Assembly (NCBI GenBank): GCA_963779415.1
Contig: CAVZYA010000003.1
Location: forward strand, 1,617 to 65,616
Origin: an uncultured Acidobacteriota bacterium
Lineage (GTDB): Bacteria > Acidobacteriota > Thermoanaerobaculia > UBA5066
Direction: 5' to 3'
DNA: 64,000 nucleotides
Part shown: positions 4,751 to 45,616 of the stretch, in pieces
Position numbering within the stretch: the stretch's first letter is position 1
Layout: each line of letters starts with the position of its first letter
Notes under the pieces: model-generated
What the model saw: only the letters and a program-made list of their open reading frames with translations
Told to the model about the DNA's origin: nothing
Database searches by the model: none
Translations under genes and position numbers: made by a program

Positions 4751-5011
4751 TCAGGAGGTCTCCCCGCTTCCGTCCTCCAGGCCTAGCAAAGGAGCCACGA
4801 CGGCGCCGAGAATCTCGGCCGTGACTGTCGCCTCGAGGCGTGTCGACTCGGCGAGACCGGCTCGCCGGCTCTGGATCTCATTGGCGACTTCCTCGGCTAC
4901 GTCAGGATCAGCGGCCCGCAGTCGCCGGGCGAGCTGGACGGCGACGGCGAGAAGTTCGGCGCGACCGGCCTCGACCTGCTCGAGAAGGTCCCGAAGGTCC
5001 TCGGCTGGCAA
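4751..5011 (-). CDS. Hypothetical small helical protein (86 aa)
   Basis: The ORF has a non-shadow composition (acidic, helical) and lies directly downstream of 5063..5377 on the same strand. No recognisable family. Confidence 0.35.
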   Translation of the reverse strand: MPAEDLRDLLEQVEAGRAELLAVAVQLARRLRAADPDVAEEVANEIQSRRAGLAESTRLEATVTAEILGAVVAPLLGLEDGSGETS

Positions 5012-5062
5012 CGGGGTGGACGTCTATCCGCGACGGCTTCGAATCGGGCGGCGGCTGCCAGA

Positions 5063-5377
5063 TCAGTTCGTCGGCTCGAAAAGGATCTCGCCGACCAGCT
5101 CGCTCCCCGTGTCTCGGATGATCGAGATGAGGATCGTTTCCCCGCGAAAATCCATGAGGACGTCCTCCGTCTCCGGGTTGTACTTCTCGACGGCGGCGTG
5201 AACCGAGTCGATCAGACTCGTCGCGTCCGGCTCGCTTTCGAGGTTCTCCACCAGCTCCGACGGGAAGGCGTAGCGCAGCGGCTCCTGATCGTCGAGCTGG
5301 AGGACGAATCCGCGGCCGTTCTCGCGAAAGGCGTGCCGAGCGAGCCGGAGCAACTCTTTCTGGTCCAAGTGCCGCAT
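5063..5377 (-). CDS. Hypothetical protein (104 aa)
   Basis: Balanced amino-acid composition, unlike the Arg-rich shadow frames. ATG start, divergent from 5538..6356. No recognisable family. Confidence 0.5.
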   Translation of the reverse strand: MRHLDQKELLRLARHAFRENGRGFVLQLDDQEPLRYAFPSELVENLESEPDATSLIDSVHAAVEKYNPETEDVLMDFRGETILISIIRDTGSELVGEILFEPTN

Positions 5378-5537
5378 CGTTTACGCGAGAGATTATCCGC
5401 ATCGCTGACCCGTTCCAGCTTCCGAGCGCAAAGACTTCGGCGTAGGCTTGAGATAGAATCTCGGTCGCATGGCCCGGCGAGCGATCTGAAACGCGGTCCC
5501 TTCCGGGCGGAGGACCGATGAACAAGGAGGGACGCTC

Positions 5538-6356
5538 ATGAAGCCAAGGCCATTTCTAAATTCCGGTTTCGTAGCGACCAGCGTCATCGTCACGTTGATC
5601 GTCTCTTCCGCTGGCGCCCGCGCGCAGGTGCCCGGGCGCGGAGATCCGGACAAGTACGGCAGCGCTCGCGTGACGGGTACGGCGTCCGAGGTGGGTATTA
5701 CAGGAGCCCGCATGCCGGACTGGGGGACCAGTTCGACGAGCATTCTGAGGATCGGGTCGAGTAGCTTCGCTCCGAACTCTTCGTCCAGTCTCTGGGATGG
5801 GGCCGGCGGCTGGCTGATGGGAACTAACCCGGCGCAACCGCCACCGCTTCACTTTTCGGCGAGCCTCCAACTTCCGTCGGGTGCGCTGATCAAGTCGTTC
5901 GCTGCGGAGGTCTACGACAACTCTGGGCCCGGGGACATTACCGTCTGGATAGAAGCCTGTCAGAACCTGAACGGTGCGTGCGTAACCACCCCGACCGTTA
6001 CGACATCTGGAACGCCGTTGTTCATGTGGCTCACCAGTACGTTGTCGTCTCCGATCACCATCGACAACAGCGCGAACAACTACGTCGTCTGGGTCGACCT
6101 GGGATCGCGCGACCCGGGCAACGCTTTCCGTAGCGTGGTCATCAACTACCAGCTTCAGGTCTCGCCGGCTCCCGCGTTCGCCACGTTCGCCGACGTCCCA
6201 GTGGGTAGTACGTACCACAGGTTCGTCGAGGCCCTCTACGCGGCGGGCATCACGGCCGGATGCGGGGGCGGGAACTTCTGCCCCAACACGCCGGTCACGC
6301 GCGGCCAAATGGCGGTATTCCTTTCTGCAGCCCTCGGCCTCTACTGGCCCAACTGA
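5538..6356 (+). CDS. Secreted protein with a C-terminal Cys-containing SLH-like module
   Basis: An N-terminal hydrophobic signal is followed by AGARAQ. The C-terminus FADVPVGSTYHRFVEALYAAGITAGCGGGNFCPNTPVTRGQMAVFLSAAL matches the module repeated at 1-470. Confidence 0.8.
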   Translation: MKPRPFLNSGFVATSVIVTLIVSSAGARAQVPGRGDPDKYGSARVTGTASEVGITGARMPDWGTSSTSILRIGSSSFAPNSSSSLWDGAGGWLMGTNPAQPPPLHFSASLQLPSGALIKSFAAEVYDNSGPGDITVWIEACQNLNGACVTTPTVTTSGTPLFMWLTSTLSSPITIDNSANNYVVWVDLGSRDPGNAFRSVVINYQLQVSPAPAFATFADVPVGSTYHRFVEALYAAGITAGCGGGNFCPNTPVTRGQMAVFLSAALGLYWPN

Positions 6357-11757: not shown

Positions 11758-12495
11758 GTGAAGTTCGCCTTGCTTCTTCTCGGAAGCGTAGTTGCGGCGC
11801 GGGCCGCGGTCGCCCCCCCGGCGGTCGGGACACCTGTCCTCGTCGAGCTCTTCACGTCGGAAGGCTGTTCAAGCTGCCCGCCCGCGGACCGGCTCCTCGC
11901 GCGCCTCGCCGCGAAACAGCCGGTTCCCGGTGCGCTCGTCGTGCCGCTCTCCCTCCACGTCGACTACTGGAACCGCCTCGGCTGGGAAGATCCTTTCTCG
12001 TCGCAGCGTTACACAGAGCGCCAGAGCGCCTACTCCGCGCACTTCGGCGGCTCTGGCCGCGTCTACACGCCGCAGATGATCGTGGACGGCTGGACGGAAT
12101 TCGTCGGAAGCGACGAGCGCGCCGCGCGGCGCGCGATCGAGGCCGCCGCCCACGAGCCGAAGGCATTCGTCCGGGTCGCTCCGAACGGCGCGGGCGCCGT
12201 GTGCGTGACTGTCTCGGGTGCCGAGGCCGGGGCCGACGTCCTCGTTGCGGTCATCGAGGACGGCCTCGCCTCAGACGTCACGCGCGGCGAGAACGCCGGG
12301 AAGCGGCTCGTGCAAGCTGCCGTTGCGCGTGAGCTCCACGTTGCCGGCAGGGTCGACGCAGCGGGCCACTTTGACGCCGTGGTGCGCGTCTCGAGCGGAG
12401 CGGGCGAACGCCGCGTCCTCGCGTTCGCGCAGGAGCGTGGCCTCGGCCGCGTCATCGGCACCTCGGTACCAGCAGACCTCCCGCCAGGACGCTGA
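11758..12495 (+). CDS. DUF1223 family (thioredoxin-like fold) secreted protein
   Basis: GTG start and a signal peptide. VLVELFTSEGCSSCPPADRLL...HVDYWNRLGWEDPF...YTPQMIVDG is characteristic of DUF1223. Confidence 0.85.
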   Translation: MKFALLLLGSVVAARAAVAPPAVGTPVLVELFTSEGCSSCPPADRLLARLAAKQPVPGALVVPLSLHVDYWNRLGWEDPFSSQRYTERQSAYSAHFGGSGRVYTPQMIVDGWTEFVGSDERAARRAIEAAAHEPKAFVRVAPNGAGAVCVTVSGAEAGADVLVAVIEDGLASDVTRGENAGKRLVQAAVARELHVAGRVDAAGHFDAVVRVSSGAGERRVLAFAQERGLGRVIGTSVPADLPPGR

Positions 12496-18786: not shown

Positions 18787-18885
18787 TGGCGGAAGCGTGT
18801 GGGAGTCGAACCCACCCGCCGCCCCTCTCGGAGCGAGCACGCTGGTTTTGAAGACCAGGAGGGCCACCGGGCCCCTTTCGCTTCC
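18787..18885 (-). tRNA. selC: tRNA-Sec (anticodon UCA)
   Basis: The reverse complement is GGAAGCGAAAGGGGCCCGGUGGCCCUCCUGGUCUUCAAAACCAGCGUGCUCGCUCCGAGAGGGGCGGCGGGUGGGUUCGACUCCCACACGCUUCCGCCA. It has anticodon loop CUUCAAA, a 6-bp D stem (GGGGCC/GGCCCU) with a 4-nt loop, a long variable arm and a GUUCGACUCC T-loop. The GGAAG...CUUCCGCCA ends match E. coli selC. Confidence 0.9.
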
Positions 18886-18894
18886 GGGCGGATT

Positions 18895-20211
18895 CTAAGA
18901 CGCCGGCGTGCCCCGGGCCGCGGCGAGGCGCTCGAAGCTGCCGACGCAGTCTTTCGCCTTGTAGACGCGCCCGCCGACCTCGAGTAGGAGACGGTCGTAG
19001 GCCCGGCATAGCCGGATCAGGCGTTCCGAGTTCCCGCGCGTGACCGGAAAATCCAGCGCCAGACTGAATCCGTCGGAGGCGTATGCGCGGGGAAAGGTGT
19101 CGGCGCGGTGTCGCTTCATCACGGCGAGCGAGGAGACCGCTCCGTGCTCGTGCTGGAGGCGGATCGCGCGTGTGAACGCTTTTTCCGCGATTTCCTTCGG
19201 GACGAAGAGCTGGTACTGGATGAAGCCGCCGGGACGGTAGACCTCGTTCCAGCCGGGGAGGTAGTCGAGGAGGAACGAGTAGGCGACCAGCGACTGCCGG
19301 AAATGCGTCCGCCCCGCGAGCCTTCCGGCGAGATACTTCGCGGCATTGACGGCGCGCATCTGCGGCCCCTTCGCCGTGAGACGGAGGCCGAGGAGCATCA
19401 CGGGAATCGGGAGCGGACCCGTCTTCACGTCGGCCAGCTGCTCGGCCTCCGAAAAACCGCTCCCCTCTCCGTTTCGCTGCAGGTGCTCGTTCGCGAGGTG
19501 GACGACCGACCGCCCGAGGGGGGCGCCTCGCGCGAAGCAGTCCGTCCACGCGACGACGTATTCCCACGAATCCTTCGCCTCGTCGAGCGCCCGGAGGGTC
19601 GACGCGAGGTCGGGCGTGGCGAAGCCCTCCACGTCGAGATACCCGGTCGCCACCTTTTTCAGCCTGAGAGCGACCTCGACGATCGGCTCCTCGGCGCGGA
19701 AGTTGCCGACGAGCCCCGCGAAGCGGAGATCGTCCCTCGCGATCCGCTCCACCTCGCCGCTCCGCCGGAGGACCGCGAGCTCCAGAACGTGGTCCGCGAG
19801 CGCTCCCCTCCTCCATCCGTTCTTTCCATGGACGTTGACGGCGACCGCGCCGCCGAGCGTGACGTGCATCGTGCCGGTGACGACCGGGGGCCAGAACCCC
19901 CGCGGAAGCGAGAACCGCCAGAGAGCGCCGATCGTCACCCCGGCCTCGGCGCGGACGACGCCCGTCGCCTCGTCGAGGGAGCGGATCCTGTTCAGCCCCG
20001 AGAGTTCGACGACCGGTCCGCGCGGGTTGATCGCCGCCTCACCGTAGGAGCGGCCGGCGCCGCGGAAGACGGGCCGCTCGCCGCGTGCGCGGCAGAGCGC
20101 GAGGACGTTGCCGAGCTCGCCGACGGAGGCCGGCCGGAAAACCGGAGAGACGGAGAAGTTGTAGAGGCCGAACCCCTCCACCCGCTCGGAGCGGGGCTCC
20201 GCGGCGCTCAC
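18895..20211 (-). CDS. FAD-binding oxidoreductase, DprE1-like (decaprenylphospho-beta-D-ribofuranose 2-oxidase family)
   Basis: FAD-binding PCMH-type N-terminus (...VFRGAGRSYGEAAINP...VRAEAGVTIGAL...). A GTG start at 20211 overlaps the stop of the upstream SDR (GTGA). The pairing with an SDR matches the DprE1/DprE2 arrangement. Confidence 0.8.
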   Translation of the reverse strand: MSAAEPRSERVEGFGLYNFSVSPVFRPASVGELGNVLALCRARGERPVFRGAGRSYGEAAINPRGPVVELSGLNRIRSLDEATGVVRAEAGVTIGALWRFSLPRGFWPPVVTGTMHVTLGGAVAVNVHGKNGWRRGALADHVLELAVLRRSGEVERIARDDLRFAGLVGNFRAEEPIVEVALRLKKVATGYLDVEGFATPDLASTLRALDEAKDSWEYVVAWTDCFARGAPLGRSVVHLANEHLQRNGEGSGFSEAEQLADVKTGPLPIPVMLLGLRLTAKGPQMRAVNAAKYLAGRLAGRTHFRQSLVAYSFLLDYLPGWNEVYRPGGFIQYQLFVPKEIAEKAFTRAIRLQHEHGAVSSLAVMKRHRADTFPRAYASDGFSLALDFPVTRGNSERLIRLCRAYDRLLLEVGGRVYKAKDCVGSFERLAAARGTPAS

Positions 20212-20951
20212 GGCGGGCCGAGCCTCTTGAAGACGAACCTCGGAATGTGCCGGAGGACGAGCCCGAAGAGCCCCCACCGCCGGTAGACGTAGAAGACCTC
20301 GTCGCCACGCTCGAGGCGGTCCGCGATGATGCGGGCCGCCTCCTCGGGCGGGACGACCCAGAAGAGGCCCGGCTTTCCCGCCGTCATCTTCGTGCCGACG
20401 AATCCGGGCTTCACCGTCGAGACCGTCACGCCGAAGGGGAAGAGCCGGCTCCGAAGCCCTTCGAGGTAGGTCGTGAGCGCCGCTTTCGAGGCGTTGTACG
20501 CCGGGTTTCCCTTCCTCCCGCGGTCTCCCGCGATGGACGAGATGGCGGCGATCTGACCCCGGCGCGCCTCCCGGAAATAGTTGGCCGCGAGGCCGAGCAT
20601 CTCGACGGCTGCGACGGCGTTTACCTCCATCGTCTCGCGGTCCTTCGCGGGTTCGGCCGTCACCCCGTCCCCGTGGTACATGACCCCCGCGTTGTACAGG
20701 AAGAGGTCGCAGTGGCCGATTGAGGCGATGGCGTCGCGGAAGGCGGGGGCGATCCGGTCCGTCTCGCGCAAGTCGCAGACAACGGCCGTGACCGTGGCGT
20801 CCGGGTGCCTCGCGGCGATCTCCGCGCGGACGGCCTCAAGCTTCTCCGCCCCGCGGCCGACGAGGCAGACCCACGAGCCGCGAGAGGCGTACTCGCCGGC
20901 GAGGGCCTTTCCGAGGCCGTCCGTCGCGCCCACGACGACGACGCGCTTCAT
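20208..20951 (-). CDS. Short-chain dehydrogenase/reductase, DprE2-like
   Basis: MKRVVVVGATDGLGKALAGEY carries TGxxxGxG, and ...YNASKAAL carries YxxxK. The 443-aa track ORF is an Arg-rich upstream extension that I reject. Confidence 0.85.
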   Translation of the reverse strand: MKRVVVVGATDGLGKALAGEYASRGSWVCLVGRGAEKLEAVRAEIAARHPDATVTAVVCDLRETDRIAPAFRDAIASIGHCDLFLYNAGVMYHGDGVTAEPAKDRETMEVNAVAAVEMLGLAANYFREARRGQIAAISSIAGDRGRKGNPAYNASKAALTTYLEGLRSRLFPFGVTVSTVKPGFVGTKMTAGKPGLFWVVPPEEAARIIADRLERGDEVFYVYRRWGLFGLVLRHIPRFVFKRLGPP

Positions 20952-20965
20952 CCGGCGATTATCGT

Positions 20966-21874
20966 TCACGGCCAGAGGCGCTCGCGTCCGTCGTGCCAGT
21001 CGCGCGTCACGTCGAGCCAGAAAGCAAGCCCGGCCCACGCGCCGAAGGAGCCGTAGAAGCGGGCGACTCGCGCGTCCGGCACCCGGCGGGAGCGGAAGCG
21101 GAGATCCGAGACTTTCCTTCGCGACCACGAATCGAGGCCGAGCTTCGCGTGGCGGCCGAGGAGCCGCGACATCGTCTGGACGGCGTAGGGGCCGAATCCC
21201 GGCTGCGCGCCGATCTCCTTCTCGACCTCCTCGACGCTCCGGGCCGGATCCTCCCAGCGGGAAAGGTCGAGGCGCCCCGACGCGACGTCCTCGGAGAGCC
21301 CGAGGAGGTACGACGCGCGGTAGCCGCACCGGATCTCGTCGCGAAGACGCTTTTCGGTGAATCCCGCGAGAAAAGGGGCGTGGGGAAAGGCCCCGGCGCG
21401 GCCGAAAGCCCCGACGAGGTTCCCGACCATCGCCCGCGTCAGCCCCCAGGAGCAGTTCGTCGTCAGGAGCACCTTCACGGCGTCCTCGAACGGAGTGGGC
21501 GAGCGGAGAATCCGCCCCGCGCCACGACGGGCGATCCATCCGAACCCCTCCCCCTCCCGCTCGCGGCAGAGGGCGTGAAACCCGGATAGATCGACCGAGA
21601 CATCGAGAACACGGAAAACGACCGATTGCACTCGATCAGCGGCTGCAGTTGCAGCCGCCGCATAGCAGAAGGAAATCTCTTCCTCTTCGGACATCGCATG
21701 AACAGAGAGCTGGCCCTTTCGCCCCGTGATTTCGACGCGGACCGGTTTCTCCCCCTCTAAGAATACGAATTTCAGGCGTCTCGCTTCGGCATCCCAGGAG
21801 AATGGCGGGAGGTCGTACCAGCCGTGGCTCCGGACGACGAGGTCGAGGTCGAAGCGGCCCTTGACGCGCGTCAG
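20966..21874 (-). CDS. HhH-GPD superfamily DNA glycosylase (AlkA / 3-methyladenine glycosylase II-like); start codon uncertain
   Basis: RFDLDLVVRSHGWYDLPPFSWD... matches the family N-terminus. The HhH motif is GFGPYAVQTMSRLLG. No ATG, GTG or TTG is in frame near the homologous N-terminus. The first plausible codon is CTG at 21874-21872, overlapping the PBP stop. Confidence 0.7.
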   Translation of the reverse strand: MTRVKGRFDLDLVVRSHGWYDLPPFSWDAEARRLKFVFLEGEKPVRVEITGRKGQLSVHAMSEEEEISFCYAAAATAAADRVQSVVFRVLDVSVDLSGFHALCREREGEGFGWIARRGAGRILRSPTPFEDAVKVLLTTNCSWGLTRAMVGNLVGAFGRAGAFPHAPFLAGFTEKRLRDEIRCGYRASYLLGLSEDVASGRLDLSRWEDPARSVEEVEKEIGAQPGFGPYAVQTMSRLLGRHAKLGLDSWSRRKVSDLRFRSRRVPDARVARFYGSFGAWAGLAFWLDVTRDWHDGRERLWP

Positions 21875-24270
21875 GGGGAGGCTCCCGGAACGGCGGGGGG
21901 CGGAACGCCGGGCCCGGGGACCGGGACGGGCCTGGCGCCGTGGAGAGGGCAGAGCTCCGTCGGCTCCGTTCCGGCGACGAAAACCTCGGGAAACGAAACG
22001 GGACACGCGTCCGTCCAGAGCTTCCCGCTCAGCGGATCGATCCGGACCGTCACGACGCCGGGCGAAGTCGGGAAGGGCTCCTCGAAGTAATGGGACGGAA
22101 GCCGCCGGACGAACTCCGCGAAAATCGGCACGGCCGCCGCCGAGCCGGAGAGGCCGAGGCCGCGGTTGTCGTCGAAGCCGACCCAGACGGCGACGAGAAG
22201 GCGCGGTGAGAAGCCGATGAACCACGCGTCGCGTCCCTCGTTCGTCGTCCCCGTCTTCCCGGCGAAGATCCCCTGCGCGCCGAGGCGGCGGGCCGAGGCC
22301 CCCGTGCCCCGGATCACGGCCCCCTGAAGAATCGAGTCGAGAACCGTAAGGGCGTCCGGATCGACGGCGCGCTCCAGCTTCGCGTTGCGTCTCTCCACCT
22401 GACGTTCCGAGGAGCCGACGAATCCGAGAAGCGCCGTGGGCTCGACCCGGAAGCCTCCGTTCGCGAACGTCGCAAAGGCCGAAGCGATCTCCATCGGGCT
22501 CGTCTCGAAGGCTCCGAGCGAGAGCGACGGGTATGGCTTGAGCGGCGAGGTGATGCCGGCCCGGCGGGCCGTCTGGACGATGTCGAAGAGGAGCGACTGG
22601 TGCGGGCCGACCTCGGAGACGGCGATGCGCGCGGTCGGAACGTTGATCGACTGCTCCAGCGCCTGCCGCGCCGTCATCCATCCGCGAAACCGGCCGTCGT
22701 AGTTCTTCGGGATCCAGACCTCGTCCTCCCCAGCCCCCCACGCGATCGCGATCGGCTCGTCGAGGTAGAGCGAGGCGGCGGTGACGGGCTTCGGAACGTC
22801 CCGCTTCGAGAAGGCCGTCAGGTAGACGAACGGCTTGAAAAGGGAGCCGGGCTGCCTCTTCGCCTGGACGACGCGGTTGAACTGCGAGACCTGGTAGTCG
22901 CGTCCCCCGACGAGGGCCCAGATCGCACCCGTCGCCGGGTCGAGCGCGATGAGGGCGCCCTGCAGCTCCTCGTCCTCGTCCCGCGATCGGAGGTGGCGGT
23001 GGGCCTTCTCCATCTCCTCGAGTCCTCTGCGGACCGCCGCCTGGGCCGCCGCCTGCATCTCGGGGTCGAGCGTCGTGTAGATGGCGAGGCCGTCCTCGCT
23101 CATCTCCGGGGCCTCCGCGCGGACCTGCTTCATCAGGAAGTCGACGAAGTGCGGCGCGACGATCCCGACCGGCGGTCCCTTGACGCGCGTGACCGGAGCG
23201 TCGAGCGCCTTTTCGAAAGCCGCCTTGTCGATCTTTCCCAGCTCCAGCATCCCCTTGAGGACGACGGCCCGCCTCTCCTTCGCCCGGTCGGGATGCCGGA
23301 ACGGCGAGTACCTTCCGGGAGACGAGATGAGCCCCGCGAGGAGCGCGGCCTCCGGCAGATCGATCTGGGAGACGGATCTCCCGAAGTAGAACCGCGACGC
23401 TTCCTCCACCCCCGTCACGGAGACCGAGCCCTTCTGTCCGAGGTAGATCTCGTTCAGGTAGGCCTCGAGGATCTCCTCCTTCGAGTAGCGGGACTCGACG
23501 ATGACGGCCACGAGGGCCTCGAGGGCCTTCCGCTTCAGCGTCCGTTCGGGGGTGAGGAACATGTTCTTGACGAGCTGCTGGGTCAGCGTCGAGGTGCCGC
23601 GGACCGACCGGCCGCGGGTCACGCTCTGGACGACCGCGCCGGCGAGGCGGCGGAAGGAAAGGCCGCCGTGCGTGAAGAAGTCGCGGTCCTCGGTGGCGAG
23701 GACGGCATTCACGAGAACCGGCGGAACCTCGGAGAGCGTCACGAGCGTCCGGTCCTCCATCTTCTCGTCGTAGACGGAGCCGACCACCTCGGGCTCGAAG
23801 ACGGCCCACGCGAGAGGCGCTCCGGCGGGGAGGCTCCGGACCGCGACCACGCGCCGCCCGGAAAACTCGATCGACGTGGTCCCGCCCTTCACGAGCCCCT
23901 CCGGCGACTCCCGGTCGCGAATCGAGACGGCAAGCCGGCTCTTCGTCAGGTGGTACTGCCCCGGAGCCACGTCGGACTTCCCCGAGTCGGCGTAGCGGAG
24001 GCGCGTGAGGCGCCGGATCACGTCGTCGGTCCCGAGAGCGTCCCCCGGGCGGACGACCCACGCATCCGAGTAGATCCGCGCCGGCAGCCGCCAGCGCGGC
24101 CCCTCCATCCGCGCCTCCACGACGCGCCCGTAGTAGAGGACGACGACCGTGACCGCCGCCGCGACGAGAACCACGACGGCCGCGAAGAAGAAAGCGAACG
24201 GGCGCCAGTTACGGCGGACGAAGCCCAGCGCCTTCCTCACTCCCTCCCGGATCCTCCGGCCTTCCGCCAC
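21871..24270 (-). CDS. Penicillin-binding protein 1A family (bifunctional transglycosylase/transpeptidase)
   Basis: TM anchor, then EDRDFFTHGG and RGTSTLTQQL (GT51). The transpeptidase motifs are PGSLFKPFVY (SxxK), SINVP (SxN) and GKTGTT (KTG). Confidence 0.9.
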   Translation of the reverse strand: MAEGRRIREGVRKALGFVRRNWRPFAFFFAAVVVLVAAAVTVVVLYYGRVVEARMEGPRWRLPARIYSDAWVVRPGDALGTDDVIRRLTRLRYADSGKSDVAPGQYHLTKSRLAVSIRDRESPEGLVKGGTTSIEFSGRRVVAVRSLPAGAPLAWAVFEPEVVGSVYDEKMEDRTLVTLSEVPPVLVNAVLATEDRDFFTHGGLSFRRLAGAVVQSVTRGRSVRGTSTLTQQLVKNMFLTPERTLKRKALEALVAVIVESRYSKEEILEAYLNEIYLGQKGSVSVTGVEEASRFYFGRSVSQIDLPEAALLAGLISSPGRYSPFRHPDRAKERRAVVLKGMLELGKIDKAAFEKALDAPVTRVKGPPVGIVAPHFVDFLMKQVRAEAPEMSEDGLAIYTTLDPEMQAAAQAAVRRGLEEMEKAHRHLRSRDEDEELQGALIALDPATGAIWALVGGRDYQVSQFNRVVQAKRQPGSLFKPFVYLTAFSKRDVPKPVTAASLYLDEPIAIAWGAGEDEVWIPKNYDGRFRGWMTARQALEQSINVPTARIAVSEVGPHQSLLFDIVQTARRAGITSPLKPYPSLSLGAFETSPMEIASAFATFANGGFRVEPTALLGFVGSSERQVERRNAKLERAVDPDALTVLDSILQGAVIRGTGASARRLGAQGIFAGKTGTTNEGRDAWFIGFSPRLLVAVWVGFDDNRGLGLSGSAAAVPIFAEFVRRLPSHYFEEPFPTSPGVVTVRIDPLSGKLWTDACPVSFPEVFVAGTEPTELCPLHGARPVPVPGPGVPPPAVPGASP

Positions 24271-38730: not shown

Positions 38731-40015
38731 GACACCGGATTCTCCCGCGCCGGAGCGCTTTCCGCCCACGGTCGTCCGGCTCGGCTGGGTCTCGTTCCTG
38801 ACCGACGTCTCCTCCGAGATGATCGTGCCGCTCCTCCCGGCCTTTCTCGCCACCCTTCCCGGGGCACCGGCGAAGGCCCTCGGGTGGATCGAGGGGATCG
38901 CGGAGACGACCGCCTCGGCGGCGAAGATCGTCTCGGGACGGTGGGCCGACCGGGCGAAAGCGAAAAAGCCGCTCGTCCTCCTCGGCTACGGCCTCTCTTC
39001 GGTGGCACGGCCCCTCATCGGCATCGCCCCGGTCTGGCCCGTCGTCGCCCTCATCCGCTTCTTCGACCGGATCGGCAAGGGGATCCGAGCGGCGCCGCGC
39101 GACACCATGATCGCGGCGGCGGCGTCGCCCGAGCGGCGCGGCGCGGCGTTCGGACTGCACCGGGCTTTCGACAATGCCGGCGCCGTCCTCGGCCCGATTC
39201 TCGCCGCCGCGCTCGTCGGCGTGGCGGGTCTCTCCATCCGCTCCGTCTTCTTCCTGGCAGCGGTCCCGGCCGCTCTTTCTCTCATCGTCCTGGGTGTCTT
39301 CGTAAAGGAAAAGGGGGAGAACGACCGAAGAGTTTCTTCTAAAGGGAGAGAGCCGGGCGGCGTGCCCCCCGACGCCAGCGCGCACTGTCTGAGCGAAGCG
39401 AGTTTGCGCGCCAAGGAGGGGGGTACGCCGCACGGCTCGACTCCGCCTGGAGCGCTTCCCTCATCGTTCTGGATGCTCGCGGGTGTCGTGGGGTTCTTCA
39501 CGCTCGCGGCATCGTCCGACACCTTCATCCTCCTTCGCGCCAGGGACCTCGGGATCGCCGCCGGGTGGCTGCCGCTCCTCTGGGCCTTCTCGAACGGGGT
39601 CAGGTCGCTCTTCTCGACGTGGGGAGGAGGCCTATCGGACCGCTACGGCCGGCGGAATCTCCTTCTTGCCGCCTGGGGGCTCTATGCCGCCTGCTACGCC
39701 GGCTTCGCCCTCGTCACGACCGCGCCCTTTCTCGTCGGCCTCGTCGGGGTCTACTCGCTCTACTACTCGCTCTCCGAGGGGACCGAACGCGCTCTCGTCG
39801 CCGATCTCGTCCCGACGCCCCTCCGCGGCCGCGCCTTCGGGTGGTTCAACGCGATGACGGGGCTCGCGGCTCTCCCGGCGAGCGTCGGCTTCGGGCTCAT
39901 CTGGGAAAAATACGGGGCGCCAGCCGCATTCTTCACGGGGGCCGTCATCGCAGCCGCAGCCGCCGGAGCCCTCTTCGTCCTCGTCCCGATGGGGCGCGCC
40001 AACGAGACCCGCTAG
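38729..40015 (+). CDS. MFS transporter
   Basis: About 12 hydrophobic segments. LGWVSFLTDVSSEMIVPLLPAFL and GRWADR...RFFDRIGKGIRAAPRD are MFS-type loops. The start is ATG 38729, or possibly 38702. Confidence 0.8.
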   Translation: MTPDSPAPERFPPTVVRLGWVSFLTDVSSEMIVPLLPAFLATLPGAPAKALGWIEGIAETTASAAKIVSGRWADRAKAKKPLVLLGYGLSSVARPLIGIAPVWPVVALIRFFDRIGKGIRAAPRDTMIAAAASPERRGAAFGLHRAFDNAGAVLGPILAAALVGVAGLSIRSVFFLAAVPAALSLIVLGVFVKEKGENDRRVSSKGREPGGVPPDASAHCLSEASLRAKEGGTPHGSTPPGALPSSFWMLAGVVGFFTLAASSDTFILLRARDLGIAAGWLPLLWAFSNGVRSLFSTWGGGLSDRYGRRNLLLAAWGLYAACYAGFALVTTAPFLVGLVGVYSLYYSLSEGTERALVADLVPTPLRGRAFGWFNAMTGLAALPASVGFGLIWEKYGAPAAFFTGAVIAAAAAGALFVLVPMGRANETR

Positions 40016-41337
40016 TTCCTCGCCTCCTCGAGCTGCTTTTTGATCGCCGCGATCGCGCGGTCCGAGCGCTGCTCCGCCGGGAGCGCCTCCGCGTACGCGA
40101 GCATCTCCTGGAGAGTCTTCCTCGCGGAGTCGGAGGCACCCATTTTCACCAGCAGATCGACGCGTGTGCGGTAGACGACGAGCTTGCGCGGTCCGTACGA
40201 GAGCGCCATGGCGCGGTCCGACGCGGCGAGGGCCTCGTCGTACCTCTTCATCGCCCCGTAGGCGATTGCGAGGCGCTGCGGAGGGTTGTAGTCCTCCGGG
40301 AAATCCTTCTCGGAGGCGAGAAGCGCCGGAATCACGCGCTCGGGCTGGCCCAGCGCAAGGCAGGCGGACGTGCGGTGGGCGTCGAATACGGTCCTTTCCG
40401 CGGGAGTCTTCGCCTTCGCGGCCTCGCTTTCGAGGTAGGTGGCCCATGCCTCGAGGACCTTCTTCTCCCCCGTCTCGTCCTTCGCCGCCCCGCGCTCCTC
40501 GGCGAGACTCTGGTAGACGGCCGAAACGTCGTCGGCCGCGAGGCCGGTCTTCGGCCCATCGAGGACAGACCGCGCGTCGGCGGCGAGGGCCGCGACGAGT
40601 CCCGCTTTCTTCGGGTCGCCTTCCTTCATAGAGAGCGCGCAGTCGAGGCCCGAGCCCGCGACGTTCGCGGCGGACGGCGTGGCCCTGAGATTCGCGAAGG
40701 CGTCACGCGCCGCCGTCGCGCAGGCTTCTGGCTCGCCGCTCGAGGAGAGGGCGAAGAGGAACGACTCGACCGTCCGCGCGTACGAGGGCGAGGCCGGACG
40801 GAGCGTCTTGAGAGCGTCGCGGTAGGCCGCGGCGGCCTCGGCGTACTCTCCGTCGGCGAAGTGGCGATCCGCGTCCGTGAGGGCGATTCCGGCGGCCGGG
40901 GCCTTTCCAATCGCCTTCGCGCCGTCGTCGAGGATCCGCTGCATTTGCGGCGCCGTCGCGCCCCCGACCCAGCGGAAGACGATCTTCTCGGTCGCAGGGT
41001 CGATCACGTAGAACGACGGCCAGACCTTGACCGGGAACTTCCCGAGGACGGCGGCGTTCTCGCGCTTCTCCGTGTTGACCGACAGCCAGACGAACCGTCC
41101 GGCCTGCCGCCCGAGCGCCTTGTCCGTGAAGACGAAGGCCCTCATCGAGCGGCACGTATGTCACCAGGGCGCCCAGGCCTCGAGGAAGATCGGCTTCTTG
41201 GCCGACTTCGCCACGGCGAGAGCTTTCGGGTAGTCGTCGGCGATGAAGGGAAGGACCTCCTGCGGCGCCGACGCCGCGGCGGCCGGCATGGCGAGAAGGG
41301 CGGCCGCAAGAGCCACCGGGAAGAGCGTCGTTCTCAT
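40012..41337 (-). CDS. Secreted thioredoxin-fold protein plus a helical (TPR-like) domain, predicted selenoprotein (UxxC) with in-frame UGA at 41163-41161
   Basis: Track ORFs 41161..41385 and 40012..41145 are in the same frame, separated only by TGA plus 5 sense codons. Read-through gives ...KKPIFLEAWAPW-U-HTCRSMRAFVFTD..., placing the TGA at the first Cys of WC(H)TC. A signal peptide follows ATG 41337. Confidence 0.7.
41113..41143 (-). promoter_or_regulatory. Candidate bacterial SECIS hairpin downstream of the UGA
   Basis: The mRNA GAGgGCCUUcGUC-UUCACG-GACAAGGCgCUC forms about 11 bp with one bulge and one mismatch. The hairpin base is 18 nt after the UGA and the apical loop 31-36 nt after it. 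This is a hand fold only. Confidence 0.35.
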
Positions 41338-41383
41338 CTTCCGACTATACGGCGGCGACCCCGGTCGAAGTAAGATCCCAAAC

Positions 41384-41632
41384 ATGTCAGGACCCGTCTG
41401 GAAAAAGATCCGACTCGAGGGGACCTGCGACTCGTGCGGCGAGAAGGCCAGCGAGCTTCTCGCCGTGGGAATCGTCGTCGACTTCGCTTTCCGCCCCGAC
41501 TTCCGCTACTGCCCGGCGTGCTACGAGAAGTACGCCGGCCGCCACGACGAACTCGACCCGAAGGCCGTCGCCGAGCAGCGGGCCCCGGGGCTGATCTCGA
41601 GGCCGGACGCCGTGTCGGACCTCCCGGAGTGA
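41384..41632 (+). CDS. Small Cys4 zinc-ribbon-like protein (82 aa)
   Basis: MSGPVWKKIRLEGTCDSCGEKA...FRYCPACYEKY has CxxC...CxxC. Its stop overlaps the GTG start of the next gene (GTGA). Confidence 0.55.
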   Translation: MSGPVWKKIRLEGTCDSCGEKASELLAVGIVVDFAFRPDFRYCPACYEKYAGRHDELDPKAVAEQRAPGLISRPDAVSDLPE

Positions 41633-42897: not shown

Positions 42898-44412
42898 CTA
42901 TTCGGGCTTCACGGCCGCGATGAACTTCTGCGCTCCGCCGATCGAGCGGAGAACGTAGAAGCGGACCCACTTCCCCTGCGGGGCCTTCTTCATCTGGGCC
43001 TGGAGCTCCGCGACGGAGCCGACTTCCACGCCGTTCACCTCGAGAATGACGTCTCCGTCGATGAGGCCGGCGTCGGCCGCGGGAGAGACGGGCTTGACGT
43101 GGGTGATCAGGACTCCCCGGGACGCCTCGCGGTCGACGCGGAACTCGCGCCTGAGCTCGGGAGAGAGATCGCTCAGCTCGAGGCCGAGCACCTTTTCCTT
43201 CTGTCCCTTCGTCCCGGTCTCTTCGGATTCCGGCTTTCCGGCATCGTCCGCCCGCGTCGCGAGGGTCGCGACCGTGGTCTTCTCCTTGCCGTCTCGGAGG
43301 AACGTGATCGTCACCTTCGAGCCGGGGGCCTTCCCGGAGACATAGTCGATCAGGTCGCGGTTGTTCTTCACCGCGAGGTCGTCGACCTTGACGATGACGT
43401 CGGAGTGCTTCAGCCCGGCCTTGTCGCCGGGGCGGTCCTTCTCGACGGACTCGACGAGCGCCCCTTCCGCCTTCGGAAGCTCGAGCGCCTCCTGCATGGT
43501 CCTGTCGACGGACCGGATCGAGACGCCGAGGTAGCCGCGGACGACTTTCCCCGTCTTCAGCTGCGGGAGGAGCCGCTTGGCCATGTTGATGGGGACGGAG
43601 AAGCCGATGTTCTGCGCGAAGCGCGGGCTCGCGATTGCCGTGTTGATCCCCACGACCTCGCCGGCCGTGTTCAGGAGCGGGCCGCCGGAGTTCCCGAAGT
43701 TGATGGCGGCGTCGGTCTGGATGAGGCTCTCGAACGAGCGGCTCGCCTCCGAGAGGTTCGCGAAGCGCCCCTTGCCGGAGACGACGCCGACCGTGACCGT
43801 CTTCTCGAAGCCGAGCGGGTCACCGATCGCCATCACCCAGTCCCCGACGCGCAGGCGGTCGGAGTCCCCGAGCGTGACGATCGGGAACGGCTTCTTTCCC
43901 TCGATCTTCAGGAGGGCGAGGTCCGTCGCCGGATCGCGTCCGACGATCTTCGCGTCGTAGTCGTCCTTGCCTCCCACCTTCACGACGACCTTCGAAGCGT
44001 CCTCGATGACGTGGTTGTTCGTCAGAATGAAGCCGTCCGGCTCGATCAGGAAGCCGGTTCCGCTGGAGACTTCCTTTCGTTCCTCGGTCTCGCCGCGCGG
44101 GTCGGGACCCGGGAAGAAGTCGAACGGGCTCCCCTGATGGAATCGAGGCATGCCCCGGCGGTCGGGCTTGATGATGTCGGTCGACGTCACCGAGACGACG
44201 CCCGGCGACACCTTCTCGACGAGATCCGCGAAGGAAGGGAGGGCCATGGGCGAGAGGGCGCGCGCCGGAGTCGCGGCGGCGGATTCGGGCGGGGTCGCCT
44301 TCTGGGCGGCGGCCGTCCGGGTCAGGTCGAGGCCGCCCGCGAGGATCATCCCGAAGACGACCGAGGCGGCGACGAGCGCCGTTACGGAGATCACTTTGGT
44401 GCTGGTACGCAT
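42898..44412 (-). CDS. HtrA/DegP-family serine protease with two PDZ domains
   Basis: MRTSTKVISVTALVAASVVF is the anchor. The catalytic residues lie in TNNHVI (His), DLALLKI (Asp) and GNSGGPL (Ser). I reject the 44541 start. Confidence 0.9.
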   Translation of the reverse strand: MRTSTKVISVTALVAASVVFGMILAGGLDLTRTAAAQKATPPESAAATPARALSPMALPSFADLVEKVSPGVVSVTSTDIIKPDRRGMPRFHQGSPFDFFPGPDPRGETEERKEVSSGTGFLIEPDGFILTNNHVIEDASKVVVKVGGKDDYDAKIVGRDPATDLALLKIEGKKPFPIVTLGDSDRLRVGDWVMAIGDPLGFEKTVTVGVVSGKGRFANLSEASRSFESLIQTDAAINFGNSGGPLLNTAGEVVGINTAIASPRFAQNIGFSVPINMAKRLLPQLKTGKVVRGYLGVSIRSVDRTMQEALELPKAEGALVESVEKDRPGDKAGLKHSDVIVKVDDLAVKNNRDLIDYVSGKAPGSKVTITFLRDGKEKTTVATLATRADDAGKPESEETGTKGQKEKVLGLELSDLSPELRREFRVDREASRGVLITHVKPVSPAADAGLIDGDVILEVNGVEVGSVAELQAQMKKAPQGKWVRFYVLRSIGGAQKFIAAVKPE

Positions 44413-44512
44413 AGTCTCCTTCCGAGTCCCACGATGATACGAGGCGTCCGCGTCAGGGCGGCCGCACGAATGCCTCGAGCGCAAAGCCCGTGCCGGGTTT
44501 GGGGGGGCGGGC

Positions 44513-45616
44513 TCATCGCGCCTTCGAATCGTACGGCTCATCCTCCGGCCGGATGTTGTAGAAGAAGGTGATCGTCACCCCTTCGCGATTCGTGCCGAGG
44601 TCGTCCGGCAGGGGGCGAAACCGGCTCGAGCGCGCGATCGCCTGGAAGGCGGCGTTGTCGTACGGCGGCTTCTGGGACGAGGCGACGATCCGCTCGGCAT
44701 CCACCGTCCCGTCCTTCAATATGAAGAAGCGGATCACGAGGCGACCCTTGACCCCGTACCGCGCGAGCGTCGGAACGTCCCAGTTCCGCCGGATCTTCCG
44801 GAGCATGTCCGCGGCATAGGCGCCCCAGTCATAACCCTGCGTGTCGAACGAGAGGGCGCCGTTGTCGACGAAGCCCCCTTCCCTGTCGTAGCCGCCGCCG
44901 AAATCGCCGGAGTCGCCGCCGGAGCCCGAGGATCCGCTCTGGGAAGGAGCGTAGTCCTCGGGACGGACCGATGCGAGCGGAGGCTCGAACAGCCGGGCAC
45001 CCGCCTTGAGGCCCGAGTCGATGCTCCGGTTCTGACGAAGCGCCATGAGCGACTTCTCCCTCTCCGCCTTCGCCCCGTCGCCCGCCTCGGCGGAGCGCGC
45101 CGGCGGCGGGGGCGGCACGGCGCCGCCGGAGCCTTTCTTCCCGGCCTCCTCGTCGCGGATGCCGGCGTGTGCCACGGCCTTCGGCTGCGGAAGCGGCGGC
45201 TGCTTCAGGTCCCCTCCGTGCGCCTTTCGGTCCTTGTCCGAAAGAAGGGGGTTCTTTCCCGGAGACGCCGCTTTCGGGCCGGGCGCCGGAAAGAACTGAA
45301 GCGGGATCGGAGGAGGCGTCGGGTCGGGCCTCCAGAGCCTCAAGAGCCCGAGCGGGTCGTTCTGGTCGTTCAGCTCCTTCGGGATGCCCGGATGGTAGTC
45401 GGGCGTGACGAGAATGAGGATGATGACGAGGAGATGGGCGATGACGGATCCCGCGATCGCCCGCTCGCGTGTGATCCGGATCCGAAAGGCGGTCTCCGGA
45501 GGGGTCTCGAGAACCTCGCGAAGCTCGAGCGAGTCTTCGACGGTTCCTCCGGGCGAGACGAACCGGCGGCCGCCGTCGGGCTTCGGCCAGGGGCGCGGCG
45601 CCTCGTCGCCGCCCAC
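44513..45616 (-). CDS. TonB-family C-terminal-domain protein; the N-terminus is possibly longer (see findings)
   Basis: TM segment IAGSVIAHLLVIILILV, a Pro-rich linker, then a C-terminal ...RKIRRNWDVP...GRLVIRFFILKDGTV...PPYDNAAFQAIARSSRFRPLP TonB_C-like fold. Confidence 0.75.
   Translation of the reverse strand: MGGDEAPRPWPKPDGGRRFVSPGGTVEDSLELREVLETPPETAFRIRITRERAIAGSVIAHLLVIILILVTPDYHPGIPKELNDQNDPLGLLRLWRPDPTPPPIPLQFFPAPGPKAASPGKNPLLSDKDRKAHGGDLKQPPLPQPKAVAHAGIRDEEAGKKGSGGAVPPPPPARSAEAGDGAKAEREKSLMALRQNRSIDSGLKAGARLFEPPLASVRPEDYAPSQSGSSGSGGDSGDFGGGYDREGGFVDNGALSFDTQGYDWGAYAADMLRKIRRNWDVPTLARYGVKGRLVIRFFILKDGTVDAERIVASSQKPPYDNAAFQAIARSSRFRPLPDDLGTNREGVTITFFYNIRPEDEPYDSKAR

What the first reader, a model, noticed from the sequence alone, without database searches (positions are those of the whole stretch)
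40012..41337. In-frame UGA at the first Cys of a thioredoxin-fold WCxxC motif: predicted UxxC selenoprotein split into two ORFs
Track ORFs 41161..41385 and 40012..41145 are in the same frame and are separated only by TGA (41163-41161) plus five sense codons.

Reading through gives a signal peptide followed by ...DYPKALAVAKSAKKPIFLEAWAPW-[TGA]-HTCRSMRAFVFTDKALG...VWPSFYVIDP.... The stop therefore sits exactly where thioredoxin-like proteins carry the nucleophilic Cys of W-C-x-x-C, and the resolving Cys is retained.

Three further points support this:
- Neither half makes sense alone. The upstream half would be a signal peptide plus half a Trx fold, and the downstream half would lack both the signal and the active site.
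- A tRNA-Sec gene lies in the same window (18787-18885).
- A hairpin at 41113-41143 lies at a distance compatible with a bacterial SECIS.

Standard gene callers would mis-annotate this as two genes or a pseudogene.
Basis: partly seen in the sequence, partly recalled or inferred. Interest (0 to 1): 0.75.

Follow-up and report, generated by a model that had tools for sequence, protein, structure and literature searches.

The report
Unannotated thioredoxin–TPR selenoprotein with distant SECIS
The "stop" codon really is a conserved selenocysteine codon in the active site of an exported thioredoxin-plus-TPR protein that gene callers routinely cut in two, and the RNA signal that most likely directs selenocysteine insertion lies unusually far downstream, behind a spacer hairpin.

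Summary
On the minus strand, one reading frame (41337..40012) is interrupted only by TGA at 41163-41161, inside W-[TGA]-H-T-C of a Thioredoxin_7 domain.

In 80 species-level genomes of Thermoanaerobaculia/Acidobacteriota and Eisenbacteria, 69 carry TGA at exactly this codon and 11 carry TGC/TGT. Protein conservation runs straight across the codon. A tRNA-Sec lies in the window, and TGA is otherwise the normal stop. This is a selenoprotein (U59-x-x-C62): signal peptide, Trx fold, then a roughly 300-residue TPR-like solenoid. Its closest structural match is YbbN/CnoX.

No curated selenoprotein model and no family in the 2026 inventory of 119 families that I could check matches it. Databases list it as a 377-residue "TPR/hypothetical" protein.

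A second hairpin (H2, 41103-41085, GCCGGAC-GGUUC-GUCUGGC) has a canonical SECIS apex. It is present in 74/74 Sec forms and is lost in 13/14 Cys forms. It lies 64 nt from the UGA, outside the 16-37 nt rule.

I propose that H1 acts as a structured spacer that brings H2 into range.

The parts
40012..41337 (-). Complete selenoprotein CDS, 441 residues including Sec59. ATG at 41337, TAG stop at 40014-40012.
   Evidence: Translation. The start matches the N-termini of full-length homologues. The coding signature is continuous across the TGA.
41266..41337 (-). Predicted Sec-type signal peptide, about residues 1-24 (MRTTLFPVALAAALLAMPAAAASA). The exact cleavage site is not determined.
   Evidence: Read directly from the sequence. 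Homologues have equivalent hydrophobic N-termini. The AF2 model has pLDDT below 50 for residues 1-24 of the orthologue.
41161..41163 (-). In-frame TGA, predicted selenocysteine codon (U59) of the W-U-H-T-C redox motif.
   Evidence: TGA at this codon in 69/80 species and TGC/TGT in 11/80. Four more distant Sec forms also carry it.
40999..41238 (-). Thioredoxin-fold domain (Thioredoxin_7, residues 34-113) spanning the TGA. The resolving Cys62 is at 41152-41154.
   Evidence: Pfam PF13899 at 9.6e-9, 35.7 bits against GA 27. PDB 2KUC 'putative disulphide-isomerase' at 7e-10. The AF2 Trx fold places the CxxC at the N-terminus of a helix.
40015..40935 (-). C-terminal all-helical TPR-like solenoid, about residues 135-441, with two invariant Cys (C206, C233).
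   Evidence: TPR_12 and other TPR Pfam hits. AF2 predicts helices from residue 133 to the end, with mean pLDDT 88.5. Foldseek matches TPR superhelices and YbbN. The invariant columns are listed.
41113..41143 (-). With its lower stem it spans about 41105-41154. Proposed role: structured spacer.
   Evidence: Folds. RNAalifold and pair counts. Mean energy is -14.7 kcal/mol in Sec forms versus -9.1 in Cys forms. Codon L16 is CTC in 70/70 Sec forms.
41085..41103 (-). Hairpin H2, GCCGGAC-GGUUC-GUCUGGC. Proposed SelB-binding SECIS apex, 64 nt after the UGA.
   Evidence: Located. 99.8% of cells paired. In the MFE of 69/70 Sec forms versus 1/14 Cys forms. Synonymous codons are frozen. Retained in distant Sec forms.
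18787..18885 (-). tRNA-Sec (selC), anticodon UCA.
   Evidence: ARAGORN. Rfam RF01852 at 66.1 bits, full length.

Best explanation
Window 41337..40012 (minus strand) is a single gene for an exported selenoprotein. It has a Sec-type signal peptide, a thioredoxin-fold domain whose attacking residue is selenocysteine (W-U59-H-T-C62), and a roughly 300-residue TPR-like helical domain.

The UGA is decoded by the tRNA-Sec encoded in the same window, with SelB recruited by an RNA structure inside the coding sequence. That structure has two parts. A long irregular hairpin (H1, about 41154-41105) begins 5-10 nt after the UGA. Directly after it comes a 7-bp hairpin with an [G/A]GUU[C/U] loop (H2, 41103-41085).

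Inferred steps:
- H2 is the SelB-binding apex.
- H1 is a structured spacer. It folds away about 50 nt, so that H2, 64 nt downstream in the linear sequence, sits only 5-13 unpaired nucleotides from the UGA.
- The protein is an extracytoplasmic thiol-disulfide oxidoreductase. Its U-x-x-C centre forms a selenenylsulfide during catalysis, and the TPR domain holds client proteins or partners. This is a periplasmic, redox-active analogue of the YbbN/CnoX architecture.
For: **Sec decoding**
- The frame is continuous and only the TGA interrupts it.
- TGA sits at the identical codon in 69/80 species-level genomes and TGC/TGT in 11/80. Amino-acid conservation is strong on both sides (DDYxxAL..PIFxEAWAPW|U/C|HTCRSMRAFVFTD).
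- Four more distant Sec forms have U-P-T-C or U-P-S-C motifs.
- An NJ tree with Fitch parsimony gives Sec at the root and at least 8 Sec/Cys switches.
- tRNA-Sec is present.
- TGA is the usual stop in this genome, in 17/25 confident ORFs, and there is no other credible in-frame TGA.

**RNA signal**
- Of 120 conserved sites that are at least four-fold degenerate, across the whole gene, median codon entropy is 1.23 bits. The only five sites at or below 0.25 bits all lie within codons -5 to +24 of the UGA.
- Sec forms use A20 = GCC in 69/69, G21 = GGA or GGG only, V24 = GTC in 69/69 and L16 = CTC in 70/70. Cys forms use GCG 9/11, GGC 5/7, GTG 3/11 and mixed Leu codons.
- All 7 H2 pairs are in the MFE of 69/70 Sec forms (mean pair probability 0.99) against 1/14 Cys forms (0.09). 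The one exception is a nucleotide-identical recent convert.
- H2 shows compensatory A-U to G-C changes in two separate lineages.
- Native sequences fold better than synonymous recodings (z from -1.1 to -3.3). H2 probability is 0.87-1.0 in native sequences against 0.03-0.22 in recodings.
- The window element folds at -47.9 kcal/mol, z = -4.2.
- In 74/74 Sec forms the 57 nt between UGA and H2 fold into one hairpin, leaving 5-13 unpaired nt.
- The H2 loop fits the published bSECIS loop pattern N1-G-[G/U]-N-N2 (PMC13188914).
- A GRDB-family selenoprotein gene in a related genome (L069) has a similar apex, AGACC-GUC-GGUCU, at the canonical spacing of 18 nt.

**Protein**
- Pfam Thioredoxin_7 is above its gathering score.
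- The AF2 model has pLDDT 88.5 and pTM 0.82.
- The top Foldseek PDB hit is E. coli YbbN, 3QOU, at 2.9e-6.
Against: - No experiment shows selenium in the protein.
- selA, selB and selD were not found in the 39 window ORFs scanned, and the rest of the genome is out of reach.
- No single hairpin satisfies all four criteria of the bSECIS model. H2 misses the 16-37 nt spacing by 27 nt. H1 lacks a G at the start of its loop.
- H2 is almost invariant in sequence, so classical covariation support is thin: one pair with double changes. H1 keeps its shape partly through register shifts, which column-wise counts capture poorly (83-89% paired).
- The spacer role of H1 is inference only.
- The Foldseek match to YbbN has low TM (0.21-0.31) and 14% identity. 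It reflects shared architecture rather than demonstrated homology.
Confidence: 0.85

Rival explanations
1. H1, the first reader's hairpin with its loop about 30 nt after the UGA, is itself the SelB-binding SECIS. H2 then has another role, such as slowing the ribosome or stabilising the fold, or is an accessory element.
For: - H1's spacing (30-31 nt) and energy (mean -14.7 kcal/mol) fall inside the bSECIS model limits.
- H1 is more stable in Sec forms than in Cys forms.
- Its base pairs explain the frozen CTC at L16 and the rare AGG at R7.
- It shows some compensatory changes at pairs 24-48 and 27-45.
Against: [quoted passage not shown]
- Its sequence and register differ strongly in the distant Sec forms, whereas H2 is kept nearly letter for letter.
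- This reading does not explain why H2 decays in 13/14 Cys forms.
Confidence: 0.2
2. The UGA is read through without selenocysteine, for example by near-cognate tRNA-Trp or tRNA-Cys, or by a suppressor. The RNA structures would simply promote read-through.
For: - UGA is followed by C in 74/74 forms. From my own knowledge, UGA-C is a weak termination context in bacteria.
- selA, selB and selD have not been seen.
Against: - A bona fide tRNA-Sec is encoded in the window.
- The codon alternates only with Cys codons at the nucleophile position of a CxxC motif, which is the classic Sec/Cys pair.
- H2 has the loop motif of SelB-binding SECIS elements.
- A related genome carries a known selenoprotein family (GRDB) with the same type of apex.
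Confidence: 0.04
3. The locus is a pseudogene or two independent genes: a short secreted peptide plus a cytoplasmic TPR protein that starts at Met65.
For: Gene callers and public databases list the 377-residue product as a separate protein in about 100 of the 120 closest entries.
Against: - The TGA is conserved in 69 species while both flanks stay under strong purifying selection.
- The Trx fold is split by the TGA.
- Cys forms are continuous.
- Synonymous-site constraint is centred on the TGA.
- TGA is never replaced by TAA or TAG.
Confidence: 0.01

Closest known systems
Thioredoxin-fold UxxC selenoproteins of bacteria (selenoprotein thioredoxin PF00085; 'thiol:disulfide interchange protein' PF13098; DsbA/DsbG-like forms), as listed in PMC13188914 Table 1
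   Same: - Sec replaces the N-terminal nucleophilic Cys of a CxxC motif in a Trx fold.
- Cys orthologues exist.
- Some members of these families are exported.
- The gene is mis-annotated because of the UGA.
   Different: - The domain architecture differs: signal peptide, Thioredoxin_7, then a roughly 300-residue TPR solenoid.
- The motif is W-U-H-T-C.
- PF13098 scores below its gathering cut-off here (25.3 against 27).
- No NCBIfam selenoprotein model fits.
- The words TPR and PF13899 do not occur in the review's inventory.
E. coli YbbN/CnoX 'chaperedoxin' (PDB 3QOU)
   Same: N-terminal Trx domain fused to a C-terminal TPR domain. It is the top Foldseek hit for the whole-protein model.
   Different: - From my own knowledge, YbbN is cytoplasmic and its Trx motif is SxxC. 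This protein has a signal peptide and an intact U/CxxC.
- Identity is 14% and TM is 0.21-0.31, so homology is not shown.
Canonical bacterial SECIS (E. coli fdhF type; bSECISearch consensus)
   Same: H2 has a 7-bp stem and a 5-nt loop beginning GG/AG followed by U. Its energy is -11.8 kcal/mol. It lies in the coding sequence downstream of the UGA.
   Different: - The apical loop is 64 nt from the UGA instead of 16-37 nt.
- A conserved hairpin of about 50 nt is intercalated between the UGA and H2.
Trx7/PDZ domain-containing (seleno)protein, NF041199
   Same: Thioredoxin_7-type domain fused to a protein-interaction module. A recognised selenoprotein family.
   Different: - The Sec position differs (CxxU rather than UxxC).
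- The partner domain is PDZ rather than TPR.
- The model scores 16 bits against a cut-off of 300.

Membership tests
Bacterial selenoprotein gene (Sec-UGA recoding) | In-frame UGA with protein-level conservation on both sides | tested here: met
   69/80 species carry TGA with conserved flanks. The coding signature is present on both sides.
Bacterial selenoprotein gene (Sec-UGA recoding) | Homologues with Cys aligned to the UGA | tested here: met
   11/80 loci carry TGC/TGT. Full-length proteins P0005-P0007, P0059 and others read WAPW-C-HTC.
Bacterial selenoprotein gene (Sec-UGA recoding) | tRNA-Sec in the genome | tested here: met
   18787-18885(-). ARAGORN. Rfam 66.1 bits.
Bacterial selenoprotein gene (Sec-UGA recoding) | selA, selB and selD in the genome | not testable with these tools
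   None found among the 39 window ORFs scanned with Pfam.
Bacterial selenoprotein gene (Sec-UGA recoding) | Selenium incorporated at the UGA position | not testable with these tools
   Needs 75Se labelling or mass spectrometry.
Canonical bSECIS (bSECISearch model, PMC13188914 Fig. 2) | Apical loop of 3-9 nt on an upper stem of 4-16 bp, with MFE at or below -7.5 kcal/mol | tested here: met
   H2 has 7 bp and a 5-nt loop at -11.8 kcal/mol. H1 is at -15.9 kcal/mol.
Canonical bSECIS (bSECISearch model, PMC13188914 Fig. 2) | G in the first two loop positions, followed by G or U | tested here: met
   Met by H2, whose loop is GGUUC or AGUUC/AGUUU in 74/74 forms. Not met by H1, whose loop is UUCAC(G).
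Canonical bSECIS (bSECISearch model, PMC13188914 Fig. 2) | 16-37 nt between the UGA and the apical loop | tested here: not met
   The H2 loop starts 64 nt after the UGA. Within 16-37 nt, only weak simple stem-loops carry a loop G (for example GAUGAG-GGCC-UUCGUC at -2.1 kcal/mol), and that one is incompatible with H1. H1 falls in range but fails the loop-G rule.
Thioredoxin-like fold, Thioredoxin_7 (PF13899) | Profile match above the gathering score | tested here: met
   35.7 bits against 27, residues 34-113.
Thioredoxin-like fold, Thioredoxin_7 (PF13899) | CxxC/UxxC at the N-terminus of the first long helix after strand beta-1 | tested here: met
   The AF2 model of the Cys orthologue has a strand at 54-59, C63-x-x-C66, and a helix at 64-73.
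YbbN/CnoX chaperedoxins | Trx domain followed by a TPR domain | tested here: met
   AF2 secondary structure. Top Foldseek hit is 3QOU at E = 2.9e-6.
YbbN/CnoX chaperedoxins | Demonstrable homology, and cytoplasmic location | tested here: not met
   14% identity and TM 0.21-0.31. This protein has a signal peptide. No YbbN hit in the sequence search of the PDB.
Curated NCBIfam selenoprotein families (NF041199 Trx7/PDZ, NF041383 VPGUxxT, NF045694 TsoB) | Score above the model's cut-off | tested here: not met
   16.2 against 300, 16.6 against 275, and 25.3 against 805 bits.
'Thiol:disulfide interchange protein' selenoprotein family (PF13098, UxxC) | PF13098 domain with a UxxC motif | tested here: inconclusive
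   The UxxC motif is present. PF13098 scores 25.3 bits, just under GA 27, for the window protein, but PF13098 is listed among the precomputed Pfam hits of the Cys orthologues. The representative WP_011366075.1 could not be fetched for a direct comparison.

The most novel reading that the evidence does not exclude
This family defines a distinct, bipartite class of bacterial SECIS. The SelB-binding hairpin lies 64 nt downstream of the UGA, about twice the accepted maximum. It works only because an obligatory, selectively maintained spacer hairpin of about 50 nt folds the intervening coding sequence away. The same SelB in these genomes would then serve both canonical elements (18 nt, in the GRDB-like gene) and distant ones. 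That would give a defined natural example of the roughly 13% of bacterial selenoprotein genes reported to lack a canonical SECIS.
Probability: 0.45. Interest if true: 0.7.

Novelty: new variant of a known kind. Interest (0 to 1): 0.55.

Why it matters
**Annotation.** A protein family present in most sampled Thermoanaerobaculia and Eisenbacteria genomes is systematically mis-annotated. These are abundant, uncultured soil, peat and sediment lineages. The family appears as a 377-residue 'TPR/hypothetical' protein, which loses its signal peptide and catalytic centre. About 100 of the 120 closest database entries and 46 of 150 clusters at 50% identity are truncated at the same Met. Correcting this adds an exported selenoenzyme to these organisms' redox toolkit. 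It also adds a family to the prokaryotic selenoproteome that I could not find in the 2026 inventory.

**Mechanism.** The locus offers a clean natural test of how strictly the distance between UGA and SECIS is constrained in bacteria. The field acknowledges this gap: BSepDB finds canonical SECIS elements in 87.4% of its entries. Roughly 70 natural sequence variants and several independent Sec-to-Cys reversions already serve as a built-in mutational series.

Tried and rejected
- **Rfam** has no model for the element. Only chance-level hits appear at E > 2 in 40980-41260.
- **First fold cut too short.** My first fold of 41090-41170 truncated H2 and gave an unremarkable z of -1.7. The correct span, 41075-41166, gives z = -4.2.
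- **Canonical SECIS search.** I looked for a canonical SECIS inside the 16-37 nt window. Only weak simple stem-loops carry a loop G, and the best one clashes with H1.
- **Other selenoprotein genes in the window.** The only other in-frame TGA with a coding signature (12271-12273, minus strand) is antisense to a DUF1223 gene and was rejected.
- **selA, selB and selD.** I scanned 39 ORFs, including those flanking tRNA-Sec. They are an FAD-binding protein, an SDR, PBP1A, glyQS, nusA, infB, pnp, rpoA, rpsD, HtrA and others. None is a sel gene.
- **Lower H1 stem.** Columns 10-17 pairing with 52-59 are only 83% paired, with no double changes in a fixed register. The distant forms use a shifted register, so I describe H1 as a shape and not a fixed set of pairs.
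- **Literature.** Searches for a Trx-TPR selenoprotein, or for selenocysteine in Thermoanaerobaculia, returned nothing. Liu et al. 1998 (PMC147357), Haft & Tolstoy 2025 (PMC12013261) and the BSepDB supplements were not available.
- **Failed look-ups.** P0261 and P0251 could not be retrieved as DNA.
Full report
**1. The observation**

On the minus strand the sequence reads ...GCC TGG GCG CCC TGG TGA CAT ACG TGC CGC TCG ATG AGG GCC TTC..., which translates as A-W-A-P-W-*-H-T-C-R-S-M-R-A-F. ORF 41385..41161 and ORF 41145..40012 share one frame. Only the TGA (41163-41161) and five sense codons separate them.

Full-length homologues start at MRTT..., so the real start is the ATG at 41337. The fused product has 441 residues, with the TGA at residue 59 and Cys at residue 62.

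**2. Is the TGA a sense codon?**

A search of 5.8 billion proteins shows two groups. Most close relatives are annotated as 374-383-residue proteins that start at exactly the Met after the TGA. A minority are 440-450 residues long and carry thioredoxin Pfam domains. The long forms align without a gap and read EAWAPW-C-HTCRSMRAFVFTD.

I then fetched the DNA of 80 species-representative genomes. They come from Thermoanaerobaculia/Acidobacteriota, Candidatus Eisenbacteria and one Krumholzibacteriia.
- 69 have TGA at this exact codon.
- 11 have TGC or TGT.
- None has TAA or TAG.
- The upstream half (DDYxxAL...PIFxEAWAPW) is as conserved as the downstream half.

A profile search of 1.84 billion cluster representatives found 46 of the top 150 clusters truncated at the same Met. 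Of five such distant members whose DNA I could read, four have TGA six codons upstream (motifs W-U-H-T-C, W-U-P-T-C and W-U-P-S-C). The fifth is a Cys form that the gene caller mis-started.

A neighbour-joining tree with Fitch parsimony places Sec at the root and needs at least 8 Sec/Cys switches.

Other supporting points:
- The window encodes a tRNA-Sec.
- TGA terminates 17 of 25 confidently coding ORFs in the window.
- No other credible in-frame TGA exists, so the genetic code is not globally altered.

Pseudogene and two-gene readings are therefore excluded. Sec decoding is the only explanation that fits all of these data, although selenium itself has not been shown.

**3. The RNA signal**

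*Where the constraint lies.* I built a codon alignment of 70 Sec forms. It contains 120 conserved sites that are at least four-fold degenerate, with a median codon entropy of 1.23 bits. The only five sites at or below 0.25 bits are A-5, V10, L16, A20 and V24. All lie within 30 codons of the UGA.

Codon choice differs sharply between Sec and Cys forms:

| Codon | Sec forms | Cys forms |
|---|---|---|
| L16 | CTC 70/70 | CTC 5, CTG 4, CTT 2 |
| A20 | GCC 69/69 | GCG 9/11 |
| G21 | GGA 56, GGG 13; never GGC | GGC 5/7 |
| V24 | GTC 69/69 | GTG 3/11 |

GGC makes up 50% of Gly codons elsewhere in the gene, so its absence at G21 in Sec forms is notable.

*The two hairpins.* RNAalifold on the 70 sequences returns two hairpins.
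- **H1** has its core at alignment columns 21-51, which is window 41143-41113.
- **H2** is at columns 61-79, which is window 41103-41085. It reads GCCGGAC-GGUUC-GUCUGGC, and 99.8% of its cells are paired.

*H2 tracks the Sec state.*
- In full-context folds, all seven H2 pairs are in the MFE of 69/70 Sec forms, with a mean pair probability of 0.99.
- The same is true of only 1/14 Cys forms, with a mean probability of 0.09.
- That single Cys form (L082) is nucleotide-identical to Sec forms after the TGC, so it is a very recent convert.
- Its two sister Cys forms (L081, L083) have already lost H2, reading TCC GGA AGC TTC GTG.
- H2 energy averages -11.2 kcal/mol in Sec forms, never weaker than -8.3, against -5.4 in Cys forms. 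For H1 the means are -14.7 and -9.1.
- Pair 66-74 of H2 changes from A-U to G-C in two unrelated lineages, L079 and L084.

*Controls.* Against recodings that keep the protein and the gene's own codon usage, native sequences are more stable (z from -1.1 to -3.3). H2 probability is 0.87-1.0 in native sequences against 0.03-0.22 in recodings. The window's own 92-nt element folds at -47.9 kcal/mol (z = -4.2; 0 of 200 shuffles do as well).

**4. Which hairpin is the SECIS?**

The published bacterial model requires four things (PMC13188914):
- a 3-9 nt loop on a 4-16 bp stem;
- a G in the first two loop positions, followed by G or U;
- 16-37 nt between the UGA and the loop;
- MFE at or below -7.5 kcal/mol.

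H2 meets all but the spacing. Its loop GGUUC even fits the pattern N1-G-[G/U]-N-N2 with N1 and N2 pairing. But the loop starts 64 nt after the UGA. H1 meets the spacing (about 30 nt) and energy criteria, but its loop UUCAC(G) never has the required G.

Inside the canonical window, the only simple stem-loops that carry a loop G are weak. The best is GAUGAG-GGCC-UUCGUC at -2.1 kcal/mol, and it cannot coexist with H1.

Three observations favour H2 as the SelB site.
- H2 is conserved almost letter for letter, even in distant forms whose H1 sequence is quite different.
- H2 is what decays when Sec is replaced by Cys.
- By chance, the flank of one related genome (L069) contains a gene of a known selenoprotein family, GRDB (PF07355, 6.7e-13; motif VPV-U-PMC). 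Its hairpin, CAGACC-GUC-GGUCUG, sits at the canonical 18 nt, and its apex AGACC-GUC-GGUCU resembles that of H2, GGACG-GUU-CGUCU.

H1 is nevertheless under Sec-specific selection, as shown by the frozen CTC at L16, the rare AGG at R7, and the compensatory and register-shift changes. In all 74 Sec forms the 57 nt between the UGA and H2 fold into a single long hairpin, leaving only 5-13 unpaired nucleotides.

My interpretation is that H1 is a structured spacer that brings H2 to within canonical reach of the UGA. This is an inference. From my own knowledge of the E. coli work (Liu et al. 1998, which I could not retrieve), the minimal fdhF SECIS is a 17-nt apical stem-loop placed 11 nt from the UGA. 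The effective geometry proposed here is of that order.

**5. The protein**

- Pfam places Thioredoxin_7 at residues 34-113, above its gathering score, and finds weaker TPR matches in the C-terminal part.
- The closest solved sequence relative of the N-terminal domain is 2KUC, a 'putative disulphide-isomerase', at 7e-10.
- An AlphaFold model of the 75%-identical Cys orthologue P0005 is confident (pLDDT 88.5, pTM 0.82). It shows a disordered signal peptide, a Trx fold with the CxxC at a helix N-terminus, and an uninterrupted helical repeat domain from residue 133 to the end.
- The best whole-model match in the PDB is E. coli YbbN/CnoX (3QOU, E = 2.9e-6), followed by TPR superhelices such as LGN, consensus TPR proteins and OGT.
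- Two Cys in the helical domain (C206, C233) are invariant.

I infer an exported thiol-disulfide oxidoreductase whose TPR domain binds clients or partners. Its direction of action (reductase, isomerase or oxidase) and its redox partner are unknown.

Neighbouring genes suggest no pathway. They are an MFS transporter, a MqnC/CofH-like radical SAM enzyme and an HtrA-like protease.

**6. Comparison with what is known**

Trx-fold UxxC selenoproteins are the commonest kind of bacterial selenoprotein, so the chemistry is ordinary. This family, however, matches no curated NCBIfam selenoprotein model. It does not appear in the 119-family inventory of the 2026 review, which contains neither 'TPR' nor PF13899. 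All database names I saw are 'hypothetical', 'TPR repeat protein' or 'thiol reductase thioredoxin' on truncated sequences.

[quoted passage not shown] The SECIS layout departs from the accepted model in one defining feature, the spacing. BSepDB reports that 12.6% of known bacterial selenoprotein entries lack a canonical SECIS and leaves those cases uncharacterised. This family may be a well-resolved example of that group.

**7. Verdict**

I put confidence in a Sec-encoding UGA at about 0.93 and in the overall explanation at 0.85.
- The two-hairpin SECIS model with H2 as the SelB site has a probability of roughly 0.5-0.6.
- Novelty: a new variant of a known kind.
- Interest is moderate to good at 0.55. 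A new Trx-like selenoprotein family is incremental. The systematic mis-annotation in abundant uncultured lineages matters more. The distant SECIS, which is Sec-specific and spaced by a hairpin, is a surprising and directly testable feature.

Noticed in passing
window 43874-43966 (+): ARAGORN calls a 93-nt tRNA-Leu(cag) here. It lies antisense inside the Trypsin_2 domain of an HtrA/DegP-like ORF (42898-44541, minus strand), and Rfam does not report it at gathering threshold. It is probably a false positive.
   Followed up: partly
L069 5244-5246 (-), ORF about 4983-5725: A second selenoprotein gene candidate in a related Acidobacteriota MAG. It belongs to the GRDB family (PF07355, 6.7e-13) and has an in-frame TGA in VPV-U-PMC. 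A canonical hairpin, CAGACC-GUC-GGUCUG, sits 18 nt after the UGA. I used it as an in-lineage SECIS comparator.
   Followed up: partly
window 40720-40722 and 40639-40641 (-): Two Cys in the TPR-like domain (C206 and C233 of the fused protein) are invariant across Sec and Cys forms. They could form a structural disulfide or a second redox site. Their distance in the model could not be checked.
   Followed up: no
window 41164-41178 (-), codons -5 to -1: Synonymous constraint also extends upstream of the UGA. A-5 is GCC in 55/57 Sec forms and P-2 is CCC in 62/70. Cys forms use GCC 6/GCG 3 and CCG 6/CCC 5. In addition, the base after the UGA is C in 74/74 Sec forms. No pairing partner was identified, so this may be a codon-context effect on termination.
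   Followed up: no
L082 (P0005), L081 (P0006), L083 (P0007): Three Cys forms are nested inside the window's own Sec clade. L082 differs from Sec forms only by TGA to TGC and keeps both hairpins intact. L081 and L083 have already lost H2, including amino-acid changes from AGR to SGS. Together they look like a natural time series of SECIS decay after Sec loss.
   Followed up: yes
L087 1501-2580 (P0247): This is a Cys form (TGC) that the gene caller still started at the Met after the CxxC. N-terminal truncation in databases is therefore a good but imperfect proxy for the TGA.
   Followed up: yes
window 12271-12273 (-): This is the only other in-frame TGA in the window with a coding-like signature on both sides. 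It is antisense to a genuine DUF1223 gene (11758-12495, plus strand; 4e-56) and is therefore spurious.
   Followed up: yes
window 18895-24270 (-) and the window as a whole: The genes next to tRNA-Sec are an FAD_binding_4 protein, a short-chain dehydrogenase and a PBP1A-type penicillin-binding protein, not selA or selB. The window is otherwise housekeeping: glyQ/glyS, nusA-infB, pnp, rpoA, rpsD, a GreA-domain protein and a 928-residue Ser/Thr kinase.
   Followed up: partly
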